64,000 nucleotides of DNA, taken from a virus (lineage: Duplodnaviria; Heunggongvirae; Uroviricota; Caudoviricetes). Positions 2 to 3,051 of this stretch are shown here, piece after piece; the first letter of the stretch is position 1; every line of letters begins with the position of its first letter. A program made the translations under genes and the position numbers. The notes under the pieces were generated by a model, which saw nothing but the letters and a program-made list of their open reading frames with translations, had not been told where the DNA came from and did not search any database. Location of the stretch: the IMG/VR virus record IMGVR_UViG_2690316311_000019; one strand, 5' to 3'.

Positions 2-424
2 GAGTTAAGCCATGCTAAGCGTATCCCTGCATGGGTGATGTCGCATCCATTGCGTCATGTGTTTTTACAAGGCTATCTTGATACTGATGGGACACCAAGT
101 GGTAAAGCGGGATTTAGAATTAATAGTGTTAGTTCTGCGCTTGCTTGGGGCGTTGCGGGGTTGTCACAGACTTGTGGTTATGTTTCTTCGGTCAGCTTTA
201 TTGAAGTTGAGCCCAAAAAAGTGATCGAGGATCGCGTGGTAAATCAACGGAATTATTATCAGGTAACAATCTGCCCGCAGAAATTGTCACGTAAATCAAG
301 ATTGGCTCATGGAATGCTTTTACGAACAGTCAAAGAGTTTAAATCGGTAGGCCTAGATACTGTATACAACATAGAAGTCGAAGGTGATCATTCCTATATC
401 CTCAATGGTGCGGTGGTCCATAAC
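2..424 (+). other. Intein, C-terminal portion (LAGLIDADG-type homing-endonuclease motif plus splicing blocks F/G) inserted directly before the catalytic Cys of the C5-MTase PCQ motif
   Basis: FLQGYLDTDGT motif; ...VYNIEVEGDHSYILNGAVVHN immediately followed by Cys (+1) that starts CQAFSIAG; N-terminal half of intein is upstream of the window. Confidence 0.6.
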
Positions 425-2212
425 TGTCAGGCATTCAGTATCGCGGGATTACGTGGTGGGCTTGATGATGAGCGTGGCGCGCTAACTTTAAAGTATGTGG
501 AGTTTGCAAATGCAATTGACGACAAACGGGCTGAGTCATTTCTCAAACCAGCCGTTATCGTCTGGGAAAATGTCCCAGGAGTCTTGTCATCGGCAGATAA
601 CGCCTTCGGATGTTTCCTTGCCGGATTGGCTGGAGAAGATGTGCCATTTGAACCAGGTGATCGACCTGAATCAGGAAAAAGCAACGCGTTCTGGCGGTGG
701 GATGGCAAAACCGGTTGCCATGTTCCAAAGTGGCCGCAGTGTGGTTGTATTTATGGACCGCAGCGAAAAGTGGCCTGGAGAATCCTTGATGCCCAATACT
801 TCGGAGTGGCACAACGACGCCGACGCGTGTTTGTTGTCGCAAGTGCTCGAACAGATCTCGATCCCGCAACGGTACTTTTTGAGTTCGAAGGCGTGCGCCG
901 GAATATTGCGCCGAGCAGAGGCGAGGGGAAGGAAACTACCAGATATACTTCAAACATCGCTATCAGAACTTGCGATGATACAAACATAATTGCCATGGCA
1001 CATGGGCAAGGAGGGGCTGAGATAAAAACCGATAATTCGGCACCAACTTTGACATGTAACCATGAAGCACCAATTGTATTGCTCGGCGACGGTAGAATGC
1101 GCCGTCTTACCCCTGTCGAATGTGAAAGGCTGCAAGGTTTTCCTGATTGGCATACGTTGATCCCTACGGAAAAGCGTAAAAAAGTTAATTCAGATGAACT
1201 GGCATATCTGCACAATCACTATCCAGATTTAAGCGAAGAAGAGGCCGCAATGCTTGCAGCTGACGGACCGCGTTACAAAGCGATCGGCAATAGTATGGCA
1301 ATACCAGTAATGCGCTGGATTGGCGATCGGATTACTAAGGCCGTATGTCGGCAGAAAGAAGGAAGTGAAACAAAAGAGCGAAAAGTTAAACCAGCGGCAG
1401 AATTCGAACGGTCCATATTCAAATGGGCTGGTGGAAAATTTGGTGTTCTGGAACAAATCTTTCGCTATTTGCCAGAAGGGAAGCGCCTGATTGAACCTTT
1501 CGTTGGTGGCGGAGCTGTCTTCATGAATGCCGGATACCAGGAAAATCTGCTAAATGATGTGAATGCTGACCTGATTAACTTTTACAAGACTCTGCAACGC
1601 GAGGCGCATTCACTTATCACTCTGGCACATCGTTTCTTCCAGGACTACAACACACAGGAAGGATACCTGGCAGTACGGAATGCGTTTAACAAACAAGTCT
1701 ATGATGATTTACATCGCGCAGCGGCGTTTTTGTTCCTGAACCGACATTGTTTTAACGGATTGACGCGTTACAACCAGGCCGGTGAGTTCAATGTCGGTTA
1801 TGGGAAGTATAAAACTCCGTATTTCCCATTACAGGAGATGGAAGCCTTCCTCGGTGCGGAAGGGCGGTCTGAGTTTGTATGCGGTGATTTTGCAGCGGTG
1901 ATTGAAGCTGCCGGAGAAGGAGATGTCATCTTTTGCGATCCGCCGTATGAACCGCTTCCAAATACAGAGGGATTCACGAACTATTCCGGTCATGACTTTA
2001 AGTTTGAAGAGCAAAAACGCCTGGTGTCTCTGTTGACGGATGCTCATCGTCGAGGTGCAAAGGTTCTCATTACTAACAGTGGCGCGCCAAACATCAGAGA
2101 GCTTTATCATGACAGTGGCTTCAGAGTGGAACCTCTTTTTGCCAGACGTTCTGTGTCTTGTAAGGGGGACACTCGAGGTGTAGCTCATGACGTTTTGGGT
2201 ATATTGCTCTAA
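2..2212 (+). CDS. dmt: Bifunctional DNA methyltransferase Dmt, 5'-partial (frame open to window edge): C5-cytosine MTase motifs IV-X followed by Dam-like N6-adenine MTase domain
   Basis: CQAFSIAG (motif IV Cys at nt 425-427), ENVPGV, QRRRRVFVV, LQGFPDW, GNSMAIPV; C-terminal domain with KWAGGKFG, EPFVGGGAV and DPPY; stop TAA 2210-2212. Confidence 0.8.
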   Translation, partial: ELSHAKRIPAWVMSHPLRHVFLQGYLDTDGTPSGKAGFRINSVSSALAWGVAGLSQTCGYVSSVSFIEVEPKKVIEDRVVNQRNYYQVTICPQKLSRKSRLAHGMLLRTVKEFKSVGLDTVYNIEVEGDHSYILNGAVVHNCQAFSIAGLRGGLDDERGALTLKYVEFANAIDDKRAESFLKPAVIVWENVPGVLSSADNAFGCFLAGLAGEDVPFEPGDRPESGKSNAFWRWDGKTGCHVPKWPQCGCIYGPQRKVAWRILDAQYFGVAQRRRRVFVVASARTDLDPATVLFEFEGVRRNIAPSRGEGKETTRYTSNIAIRTCDDTNIIAMAHGQGGAEIKTDNSAPTLTCNHEAPIVLLGDGRMRRLTPVECERLQGFPDWHTLIPTEKRKKVNSDELAYLHNHYPDLSEEEAAMLAADGPRYKAIGNSMAIPVMRWIGDRITKAVCRQKEGSETKERKVKPAAEFERSIFKWAGGKFGVLEQIFRYLPEGKRLIEPFVGGGAVFMNAGYQENLLNDVNADLINFYKTLQREAHSLITLAHRFFQDYNTQEGYLAVRNAFNKQVYDDLHRAAAFLFLNRHCFNGLTRYNQAGEFNVGYGKYKTPYFPLQEMEAFLGAEGRSEFVCGDFAAVIEAAGEGDVIFCDPPYEPLPNTEGFTNYSGHDFKFEEQKRLVSLLTDAHRRGAKVLITNSGAPNIRELYHDSGFRVEPLFARRSVSCKGDTRGVAHDVLGILL

Positions 2213-2219
2213 TAAATTT
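2203..2219 (+). promoter_or_regulatory. C1 repressor operator (ATTGCTCTAATAAATTT) overlapping the dmt stop codon
   Basis: Exact 17-bp match to the P1 C1 operator consensus; partial inverted copy immediately downstream. Confidence 0.7.
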
Positions 2220-2393
2220 ATTAGTGTAATATCACCTCAATGAATCGTGATTTATAGAGCGATTTAGCTGTTAGCCGCGACAGGCGCGGCGGTAAGCATG
2301 GCTGGGCCTAGTCCTCCCAGACAAACCACCGAGTTGCCAGGTTGACCATGCGCCTAAGTGGCAACGCCGAAGTGCGTTACGAGCGTCCAGTTT

Positions 2394-2964: not shown

Positions 2965-3051
2965 GGGGAGTTAGTCCGTAGGGGTAGCGGGGTAGACTGT
3001 AAATCTACTGTCATTGCGACTCGGGTGGTTCGACTCCATCACTCCCCACCA
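2965..3051 (+). tRNA. Type-II (long variable arm) tRNA-Tyr-like, anticodon GTA; D-arm pairing irregular, may be a pseudo-tRNA
   Basis: Acceptor GGGGAGT/ACTCCCC + A + CCA; anticodon stem GTAGA/TCTAC with loop CTGTAAA; variable arm and T-arm resemble E. coli tRNA-Tyr. Confidence 0.5.

What the first reader, a model, noticed from the sequence alone, without database searches (positions are those of the whole stretch)
2..430. Intein with LAGLIDADG-like motif inserted at the catalytic cysteine of the Dcm-like domain of Dmt
The first about 130 codons of the window (same frame as dmt, open to the window edge) do not look like methyltransferase. They contain FLQGYLDTDGT (LAGLIDADG-type homing-endonuclease motif) and end with ...VYNIEVEGDHSYILNGAVVHN followed directly by Cys. 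That is a textbook intein C-terminal block F/G with His-Asn and a +1 Cys. The +1 Cys begins CQAFSIAG, i.e. the catalytic PCQ motif IV of C5-cytosine methyltransferases, so the intein sits at the active-site nucleophile. Downstream extein length (595 aa) is what I would expect for an intein-free bifunctional Dmt. I do not recall an intein in P1 dmt, so this may be a mobile-element invasion of an otherwise conserved phage gene. Only the C-terminal part is in the window.
Basis: partly seen in the sequence, partly recalled or inferred. Interest (0 to 1): 0.75.

Follow-up and report, generated by a model that had tools for sequence, protein, structure and literature searches.

The report
Intein in P1-family dmt methyltransferase
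The window opens inside a genuine, unannotated self-splicing protein element (an intein carrying a homing endonuclease) that interrupts the DNA methyltransferase gene dmt of a P1-like phage-plasmid exactly at the enzyme's catalytic cysteine; it is a new example of a well-known kind of selfish element, common in E. coli P1-like plasmids and present in at least one laboratory P1vir stock.

Summary
The observation and the interpretation both hold. Window 2-424 (+, frame 2) encodes the last 141 residues of a 341-aa intein. Window 425-427 is the +1 Cys, which is the catalytic Cys of C5-methyltransferase motif IV (PCQ). A plasmid that differs from the window at 3 bases in 12 kb supplies the missing upstream part: ...VLVGGTP|CFTAGHMVL...NGAVVHN|CQAFSIAG. 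Reference P1 and P7 lack exactly these 1023 bp, and their homology to the window starts at base 425. Blocks A, B, F and G, two LAGLIDADG motifs with their acidic residues, HMM hits, and an AlphaFold model matching PI-SceI (E 2.6e-18) all agree. The intein is in 152 of 5426 complete E. coli genomes, against 339 with an empty site. It sits on three dmt backbones and is 3-5 times less diverse than its flanks, which suggests recent horizontal spread. Relatives down to 23% identity occupy the same P|C site in many phage C5-methyltransferases. All have proline at -1, which normally blocks splicing. I found no publication on it, and RefSeq names the protein only "Dam family methyltransferase". Verdict: real, a new member of a known kind, moderately interesting. 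Splicing and cleavage are inferred, not shown.

The parts
2..424 (+). C-terminal 141 residues (201-341) of the 341-aa Dmt intein: the second half of the LAGLIDADG endonuclease domain plus the C-terminal splicing blocks. Residues 1-200 and the 77-aa N-extein lie upstream of the window.
   Evidence: Translation. Identical to L001 intein nt 601-1023. Full gene in near-identical plasmid L010. Pfam and NCBIfam hits.
62..94 (+). Second LAGLIDADG motif (block E), FLQGYLDTDGT. The candidate catalytic Asp229 is at 86-88.
   Evidence: D229 is invariant in 20 haplotypes. Conserved in most relatives.
362..403 (+). Intein block F, VYNIEVEGDHSYIL.
   Evidence: Aligns to the Spl DnaX mini-intein C-terminus.
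404..424 (+). Intein block G, NGAVVHN, with penultimate His340 (419-421) and terminal Asn341 (422-424).
   Evidence: (TIGR01443 above cutoff).
425..427 (+). +1 Cys. It is the splice-junction nucleophile and also the catalytic Cys of C5-methyltransferase motif IV (P-C-Q). Homology to intein-free P1 and P7 begins here.
425..2212 (+). C-extein of dmt (595 aa plus stop). It holds the rest of the C5-methyltransferase domain: ENV at 566, QRRRR at 812, the variable block at 926-1090, and GNSM at 1286. The Dam-type N6-adenine methyltransferase domain follows (FVGGG at 1499, DPPY at 1937).

Best explanation
This is a canonical class 1 intein (341 aa) with an embedded two-motif LAGLIDADG homing endonuclease. 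It is inserted in the dmt gene of a P1-like phage-plasmid, between Pro77 and the catalytic Cys of motif IV (G-G-T-P|C-Q-A-F-S) of the N-terminal C5-cytosine methyltransferase domain. The following mechanism is inferred from the established chemistry of class 1 inteins. The 1013-aa precursor is made when the C1-repressed uhr-hrdC-dmt operon is switched on in lytic growth. Cys1 forms a thioester with Pro77. The +1 Cys, which is the methyltransferase's own catalytic thiol, attacks that thioester. Asn341, helped by His340, cyclises and releases the intein. An S-to-N shift then restores the Pro-Cys bond. The products are a 672-aa P7-type bifunctional Dmt with an intact PCQ active site and a free ~39-kDa endonuclease. 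When an intein-free P1-family genome is in the same cell, through co-infection or superinfection of a plasmid lysogen, the endonuclease would cut the empty site. Repair from the intein-bearing copy would then copy the intein in (homing). Shown here: the insertion, all sequence and fold hallmarks, the presence/absence polymorphism, and the diversity pattern. Inferred, not shown: splicing, DNA cleavage and homing.
For: (1) There is a clean 1023-bp in-frame insertion. P1 and P7 homology to the window starts at base 425, and the proteins read VLV(W/G)GTPCQAFS against VLVGGTP|CFTAGH...VVHN|CQAFS. (2) All splicing determinants are present and are invariant in 20 haplotypes: Cys1, block B T61-x-x-H64, block F, His340-Asn341 and Cys+1. 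(3) Both LAGLIDADG motifs keep their acidic residue (D137, D229). (4) On the full protein, LAGLIDADG_3 scores 29.9 bits against 22.5, TIGR01443 scores 28.8 against 15.6, and Hint_2 scores 28.1 against 28.4. Distant relatives at the same site pass the Pfam Intein_splicing and Hint_2 thresholds. (5) The AlphaFold2 model has mean pLDDT 81.6. Foldseek top hits are PI-SceI (E 2.6e-18), the Tli and Pho VMA inteins, PI-PfuI and PI-PkoII, followed by I-DmoI and I-SceI. (6) Polymorphism: 152 complete E. coli genomes carry the intein and 339 have an uninterrupted site. Empty-site alleles L004 and L005 have flanks that differ from the intein-bearing flanks at 2 bases in the 36 upstream (positions -1 and -22) and at none in the 36 downstream. 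(7) The intein sits on three extein backbones of 672, 754 and 807 aa. (8) Among 31 alleles, segregating sites are 2.9% in the intein against 11.7% and 10.9% in the flanks (Fisher p 9e-12). Third-codon-position diversity is 1.05% against 5.2% and 3.2%. (9) Relatives at 23-55% identity occupy the same P|C junction in other C5-methyltransferases: 59 of 62 viral loci, plus Metarhizobium and Mannheimia, and including a 141-aa mini-intein. (10) The C1 operator Odmt is conserved exactly upstream of the intein-bearing operon.
Against: No experiment shows splicing or cleavage. The -1 residue is proline, which is reported to block or strongly impair splicing in natural and engineered inteins (PMC6486613). 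Efficient splicing therefore cannot be assumed. The counter-argument is that Pro-1 is invariant across the whole family while the splicing residues stay conserved. Within-population variation in the intein is 16 synonymous to 17 non-synonymous changes, so purifying selection looks only moderate. Pfam Hint_2 and Intein_splicing fall below their gathering scores for this particular sequence. General homologous recombination among mosaic P1-like plasmids could also place the intein on several backbones. C5 methylation by P1 Dmt is itself only predicted in the P1 annotation.
Confidence: 0.82

Rival explanations
1. It is a splicing-impaired or trapped intein. The insertion is a real intein by descent but splices poorly or not at all because of Pro at -1. 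Intein-bearing dmt alleles would then have a dead C5 domain, while the separate C-terminal Dam domain, which P1 needs, keeps working. The element would persist because it costs little.
For: Pro at -1 is reported as incompatible with splicing for most inteins tested. The Dam domain is a separate C-terminal module. C5 activity of Dmt is only predicted. Inteins persist in dmt pseudogenes truncated by IS elements (L008 and L016) and in a decayed Mannheimia gene. The ratio of non-synonymous to synonymous variants is fairly high.
Against: All catalytic splicing residues are invariant in 20 haplotypes, and no copy has a stop or frameshift. Pro-1, Cys1, TxxH, the terminal Asn and Cys+1 are conserved in relatives down to about 25% identity in many different methyltransferases. 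That is hard to explain without selection for splicing. Motifs VI, VIII and X of the C5 domain are intact downstream.
Confidence: 0.1
2. It is a domesticated or conditional intein. Splicing would be gated, for example by redox state through Cys1 and Cys+1 or by DNA damage, and would act as a post-translational switch for C5 methylation. The endonuclease would be secondary or inactive.
For: The +1 nucleophile is the enzyme's catalytic thiol, so no C5 activity is possible before splicing. Conditional splicing is documented for other inteins in active sites (RadA intein, PMC4513877, listed). Expression is tied to lytic development through the C1 operator.
Against: There is no direct evidence. About 69% of E. 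coli dmt alleles do without the intein. The low diversity and multi-backbone distribution look like a selfish spread rather than an old regulatory module. Both endonuclease motifs are intact.
Confidence: 0.06
3. It is not an intein at all. It could be a bacterial intein-like (BIL/Hint) domain, a fused free-standing endonuclease, an intron-encoded LAGLIDADG protein, or a conserved Dmt domain.
For: Pfam Hint_2 and Intein_splicing scores are below gathering thresholds for this sequence. A BIL domain appears as a weak hit.
Against: The insertion is in frame, with Cys1 and HN/C+1, at a conserved catalytic motif. It has an embedded endonuclease, which BIL domains lack. Full-length structural matches are to PI-SceI-type inteins. 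No Rfam intron family is detected. The region is absent from most Dmt homologues.
Confidence: 0.02

Closest known systems
PI-SceI (Sce VMA1 intein) and other archaeal and bacterial inteins that carry a LAGLIDADG homing endonuclease (PI-PfuI, PI-PkoII, Tli and Pho VMA inteins)
   Same: Two-domain architecture: a HINT splicing domain split by a two-motif LAGLIDADG endonuclease. Cys1, block B TxxH, terminal His-Asn and Cys+1 are present. These are the best structural matches (E 2.6e-18 to 4.7e-10). Insertion is at a catalytic motif of a nucleic-acid enzyme.
   Different: Sequence identity is only 11-18%. The host protein is a phage C5-cytosine methyltransferase. The -1 residue is proline, and the +1 Cys doubles as the host enzyme's catalytic nucleophile. 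At 341 aa it is smaller than PI-SceI (454 aa, my own knowledge).
Inteins in actinobacteriophage DNA methylases (Kelley et al. 2016, PMC5050341, DNMT-1/2; Gosselin et al. 2023, PMC9957025)
   Same: These are LAGLIDADG-containing inteins with patchy distribution in orphan phage DNA methyltransferases. They are inserted at a conserved site, and there is evidence of horizontal transfer between divergent methylase alleles.
   Different: Kelley et al. describe their exteins as N6_N4_Mtase (PF01555) proteins of mycobacteriophages. Gosselin et al. do not mention cytosine or a catalytic cysteine. The present family is in PF00145 C5-methyltransferases, at the motif IV Pro|Cys junction, in enterobacterial P1-like phage-plasmids and many other phages.
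[quoted passage not shown]
   Same: They function, or must function, with Pro at -1 and use Cys+1. The best PDB sequence hit for blocks F and G is a DnaX mini-intein (Spl DnaX, 7cfv).
   Different: Those are engineered constructs tested in model fusions. Here Pro-1 is the native and invariant context of a whole natural family, and its splicing has not been tested.
Intein-free Dmt of P1 (AAQ14041, 754 aa) and Dam of P7 (AAQ07538, 672 aa)
   Same: The window's extein is the P7-type protein, with 577 of 595 C-extein residues identical. Gene order (uhr-hrdC-dmt), the C1 operators and the Dam domain are the same.
   Different: There are 341 extra codons at Pro77|Cys78. Reference P1 additionally has Trp instead of Gly in GGTPC and a 137-aa variable block instead of 55 aa.

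Membership tests
Class 1 intein | In-frame insertion in a host protein that is absent from orthologues, with exact extein continuity | tested here: met
   A 1023-bp insertion. P1 and P7 homology starts at window 425. Empty-site alleles are colinear.
Class 1 intein | Cys or Ser at intein position 1 (block A) | tested here: met
   CFTAGHMVL follows GGTP in L010 (3 differences from the window in 12 kb) and in all 37 intein-bearing alleles examined. This lies outside the window itself.
Class 1 intein | Block B T-x-x-H | tested here: met
   T61 and H64 (TTNDHPF) are invariant in relatives and in 20 haplotypes. This lies outside the window.
Class 1 intein | Blocks F and G with C-terminal Asn (usually His-Asn), followed by a +1 Cys, Ser or Thr | tested here: met
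   Window 362-427 reads VYNIEVEGDHSYILNGAVVHN|C. TIGR01443 scores 27.2 bits against a cutoff of 15.6.
Class 1 intein | HINT fold | tested here: met
   The AF2 model (pLDDT 81.6) matches PI-SceI, the VMA inteins and PI-PfuI with probability 1.00. Pfam Hint_2 scores 28.1 against 28.4 and Intein_splicing 17.7 against 35.8, so the HMM evidence alone is borderline.
Class 1 intein | Autocatalytic protein splicing that yields ligated exteins | not testable with these tools
   This needs expression plus western blot or mass spectrometry. Pro at -1 is a known obstacle.
LAGLIDADG (DOD) homing endonuclease, monomeric two-motif type | Two LAGLIDADG motifs, each with a conserved acidic residue | tested here: met
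   YLAGAYVGD137G lies upstream of the window, and FLQGYLDTD229G is at window 62-94. Both Asp residues are invariant in 20 haplotypes.
LAGLIDADG (DOD) homing endonuclease, monomeric two-motif type | Family HMM and fold | tested here: met
   Pfam LAGLIDADG_3 scores 29.9 bits against 22.5. Foldseek matches I-DmoI and I-SceI at E around 1e-5.
LAGLIDADG (DOD) homing endonuclease, monomeric two-motif type | Site-specific cleavage of the intein-less allele, and homing | tested here: inconclusive
   Cleavage cannot be tested here. The population pattern fits homing but does not prove it: low intein diversity against the flanks, three backbones, and linked flank markers ACA-CCA.
Bacterial intein-like (BIL) domain | A Hint domain without an endonuclease, in variable or non-conserved proteins, and usually lacking the canonical +1 nucleophile requirement | tested here: not met
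   This element has an endonuclease domain, HN|C+1, and insertion in a conserved catalytic motif.
Group I or group II intron encoding a LAGLIDADG protein | A structured intron RNA around the ORF, with the host frame interrupted | tested here: not met
   There is no intron family in Rfam at E<=1 over L001 3000-4700, and the reading frame is continuous.
P1-family bifunctional Dmt (C5-cytosine plus Dam-type N6-adenine methyltransferase), the host gene | N-terminal PF00145 motifs and a C-terminal D12-class Dam domain, in the uhr-hrdC-dmt operon | tested here: met
   PF00145 and PF02086 or TIGR00571 hits. Motifs ENV, QRRRR, GNSM and DPPY are present. Synteny and C1 operators match.

The most novel reading that the evidence does not exclude
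The P1 Dmt intein belongs to a large, undescribed family of phage inteins that all splice with an obligatory proline at -1 and use the C5-methyltransferase's catalytic cysteine as the +1 nucleophile. If it splices efficiently, it would be a naturally Pro(-1)-tolerant intein native to E. coli, which would be useful for protein engineering. It could also act as a post-translational gate on cytosine methylation. Its endonuclease might mediate competition (marker exclusion) between co-resident P1-like phage-plasmids, including in ordinary P1vir transduction stocks.
Probability: 0.15. Interest if true: 0.6.

Novelty: new member of a known kind. Interest (0 to 1): 0.42.

Why it matters
P1 is a classic model phage and the standard transduction tool, and E. 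coli is the usual host for intein work and is generally treated as intein-free (my own knowledge). About 3% of complete E. coli genomes, and roughly a third of P1-type dmt genes, carry an intact and apparently mobile intein that annotation pipelines label only as "Dam family methyltransferase". That matters for annotation, since protein length and predicted activity are wrong unless splicing is taken into account. It also gives a tractable natural system, P1vir in E. coli K-12, for studying homing between phage-plasmids. The wider family marks the Pro|Cys junction of motif IV as a recurrent intein insertion site in phage C5-methyltransferases. Its invariant -1 proline runs against the usual rule for splice junctions.

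Tried and rejected
(1) RNA intron: an Rfam scan of the insertion and its flanks found nothing relevant, only a chance SAM_alpha hit at E 0.62. The hits for 'intein + dmt + phage P1' and 'intein + P1-like' were unrelated. The library does not hold all journals, and InBase and REBASE could not be consulted. (3) A PDB sequence search gave only weak partial hits (E 0.0015 to 0.18), so the structural comparison was needed. (4) A conserved non-intein domain of Dmt is rejected by the 339 empty-site genomes. (5) A BIL domain is rejected (see the membership test). (6) My first diversity scan was inflated by loci with rearranged upstream sequence, and it used a wrong residue index (228 instead of 229). 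It was redone with filtering. (7) The four-gamete pattern, with both intein haplotypes on both backbones, was considered as proof of homing. I rejected it as proof, because ordinary recombination among mosaic P1-like plasmids gives the same pattern.
Full report
OBSERVATION. In frame 2 of the + strand the window is open from base 2 to the stop at 2210-2212. The first 141 codons (2-424) contain FLQGYLDTDGT (62-94), VYNIEVEGDHSYIL (362-403) and NGAVVHN (404-424). They are followed directly by Cys (425-427) of CQAFSIAG. The downstream extein is 595 aa. It contains C5-methyltransferase motifs VI (ENV, nt 566), VIII (QRRRR, nt 812) and X (GNSM, nt 1286), and then a Dam-type domain (FVGGG at nt 1499, DPPY at nt 1937). 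The only corrections are that there are 141 codons rather than about 130, that the intein ends at 424, and that the LAGLIDADG motif seen is the second of two.

WHAT IS UPSTREAM. The window differs at 3 bases in 12 kb from E. coli plasmid pO26_10153_1 (NZ_AP027192.1). In that record the gene is 1013 codons long and reads ...DVLVGGTP|CFTAGHMVLCKNGYKPIE...NGAVVHN|CQAFSIAG. The insert is 341 aa (Dmt residues 78-418), and the window starts at intein residue 201. Reference P1 Dmt (754 aa) and P7 Dam (672 aa) read ...VLV(W/G)GTPCQAFSIAG with nothing in between. Megablast homology of the window to these phages starts exactly at base 425. The insertion is therefore a clean 1023-bp in-frame element between the Pro and the catalytic Cys of motif IV.

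IS IT AN INTEIN. All class 1 hallmarks are present:
- Cys1 (block A).
- T61-x-x-H64 (block B, TTNDHPF).
- Block F.
- His340-Asn341 (block G).
- Cys+1.

Two LAGLIDADG motifs (YLAGAYVGD137G and FLQGYLDTD229G) lie between the splicing halves. On the full protein, Pfam LAGLIDADG_3 (29.9 bits against 22.5) and NCBIfam TIGR01443 intein_Cterm (28.8 against 15.6) pass their cutoffs. Hint_2 just misses (28.1 against 28.4), and Intein_splicing is sub-threshold. An AlphaFold2 model built from nine family members has mean pLDDT 81.6. Its best PDB matches are PI-SceI (E 2.6e-18), the Tli and Pho VMA inteins, PI-PfuI and PI-PkoII, followed by the free-standing LAGLIDADG enzymes I-DmoI and I-SceI. No intron RNA family is detectable across the insertion.

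DISTRIBUTION.
- Phage collection: 5 of 18 P1-family records carry the intein. These are RCS47, vB_EcoM-Ro157c2YLVW and OP279344.
- OP279344 is a laboratory P1vir stock that was sequenced for an Argonaute study (PMC10250240).
- PLSDB: 127 plasmids carry it (112 Escherichia, 14 Salmonella, 1 Shigella).
- Complete E. coli genomes: 152 of 5426 carry the full intein at 98.7% identity or more, with 148 copies on plasmids and 5 on chromosomes.
- An empty-site probe finds 339 genomes with an uninterrupted site. About 31% of P1-type dmt genes are therefore invaded.
- Public sources name the exact 1013-aa protein, seen on at least 1000 contigs, only as "Dam family site-specific DNA-(adenine-N6)-methyltransferase".

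EVIDENCE FOR MOBILITY. The intein occurs on three extein backbones that differ in the central variable block of the C5 domain. These are 672 aa (P7 type, as in the window), 754 aa (P1 type) and 807 aa (a Salmonella plasmid and one IMG/VR contig).

Among 31 intein-bearing alleles (20 haplotypes):

| Measure | N-extein | Intein | First 460 nt of C-extein |
|---|---|---|---|
| Segregating sites | 11.7% | 2.9% | 10.9% |
| Third-codon-position diversity | 5.2% | 1.05% | 3.2% |

The difference in segregating sites between the intein and its flanks is significant (Fisher p 9e-12). This fits a recent spread of one intein lineage into dmt alleles that had already diverged.

All 31 intein-bearing alleles in that analysis read ACA-CCA in the two codons before the intein, whereas the five empty sites examined read CCT at -1. 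Two flank haplotypes track two intein haplotypes. Empty-site alleles L004 and L005 differ from intein-bearing flanks at 2 bases in the 36 upstream and at none in the 36 downstream. They are plausible susceptible sites or precise-loss alleles. Reference P1 differs at several wobble positions and has Trp for Gly in GGTPC. None of this proves homing, because ordinary recombination among mosaic P1-like plasmids is an alternative.

THE WIDER FAMILY. Protein and DNA searches found relatives only in PF00145 C5-methyltransferases and always at the same junction. In IMG/VR, 59 of 62 full-length loci read P|C...HN|C(Q/T/A). They span 23-100% identity and several methyltransferase subfamilies (GGTP, YSFP, GGFP and HGSP contexts). 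Two more read SPE|C...N|CT and are also PF00145. Some of these distant relatives pass Pfam's Intein_splicing and Hint_2 thresholds. Relatives also occur in Metarhizobium album (48% identity, same site) and Mannheimia haemolytica. One relative is a 141-aa mini-intein without an endonuclease. Only the P1-type hosts are fused to a Dam domain.

MECHANISM (inferred). Standard class 1 chemistry applies:
1. An N-S shift at Cys1.
2. Trans-thioesterification by Cys+1.
3. Asn341 cyclisation.
4. An S-N shift.

The spliced product regains the Pro-Cys-Gln active site. Before splicing the C5 domain cannot be active, because its catalytic thiol is the +1 residue. The C1 operator Odmt is conserved exactly upstream of the intein-bearing operon (126 of 128 bases in the control region). 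Precursor, and hence endonuclease, should therefore be made during lytic growth or superinfection, which is when a second P1-family genome can be present as a target.

One feature argues for caution. The -1 residue is proline, and natural and engineered inteins are reported to fail with Pro at -1 (PMC6486613). Pro-1 is nevertheless invariant across the family together with the splicing residues. That suggests these inteins are adapted to it, but only an experiment can tell.

COMPARISON WITH WHAT IS KNOWN. Inteins with LAGLIDADG endonucleases at catalytic motifs of nucleic-acid enzymes are a well-known kind. Inteins in phage DNA methylases have been described for actinophages, and for mycobacteriophages the exteins are N6/N4-type enzymes (PMC5050341; PMC9957025). 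I found no description of an intein in P1 dmt, in E. coli P1-like plasmids, or at motif IV of C5-methyltransferases. The library is incomplete, and InBase and REBASE could not be checked. I therefore rate this as a new member of a known kind.

LIMITS.
- The N-terminal 200 intein residues are not in the window and are taken from a near-identical record.
- Splicing, cleavage and homing are inferred.
- Allele samples for the diversity tests are convenience samples (31-37 alleles), not the full set of 491.

Noticed in passing
window 926-1090: The central variable block of the C5-methyltransferase domain (presumably the target-recognition region) is the 55-aa P7 type, not the 137-aa P1 type. A third type (807-aa extein) occurs in a Salmonella plasmid (L013) and one IMG/VR contig (L036). 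P1-family Dmt proteins therefore probably have at least three cytosine specificities.
   Followed up: partly
L002 (AF234172.1) about 2989-3000, the 12 bases upstream of the empty site: Reference P1 reads VLVWGTPCQ (TGG), where every other allele examined has the conserved GGTPC (GGG). It also differs at wobble positions -7, -4 and -1 from intein-bearing flanks. This could impair the C5 domain of reference P1, or make its site resistant to the endonuclease.
   Followed up: no
window 2965-3051: A tRNA-Tyr (GTA) gene lies between tRNA-Asn and tRNA-Thr. It is absent from reference P1 and P7 but present in phage Ro157c2YLVW and plasmid pKFu022_2.
   Followed up: no
window 2203-2230: The divalent C1 operator Oban (Obana and Obanb of P1) is conserved exactly. 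It overlaps the dmt stop codon.
   Followed up: partly
window 503: This is one of three differences from pO26_10153_1 in 12 kb. It changes Leu to Phe in the C-extein (KYVEFANAI against KYVELANAI in all other alleles seen).
   Followed up: no
L008 (NZ_CP100503.1) and L016 (NZ_CP173574.1): These are dmt pseudogenes truncated downstream by IS200/IS605 (with TnpB) or IS91 insertions. Both still carry an intact, open intein.
   Followed up: no
P0010, L059 and L060 (Mannheimia haemolytica): A 47-48% identical intein sits at the same site, but the C-extein stops after about 20 aa (CQSDKGGT...). This is an intact-looking intein in a decayed methyltransferase gene, seen on 578 contigs.
   Followed up: no
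P0019: A 141-aa mini-intein with no endonuclease domain lies at the same GGTP|C...HN|CQ site of a C5-methyltransferase. It shows the endonuclease-loss stage of the homing cycle within this family.
   Followed up: no
L003 (OP279344.1): A laboratory 'P1vir' stock differs from reference P1 in dmt: it has the intein and the P7-type variable block, and the record is titled as lacking res and mod. Lab P1 lineages are therefore not uniform.
   Followed up: partly
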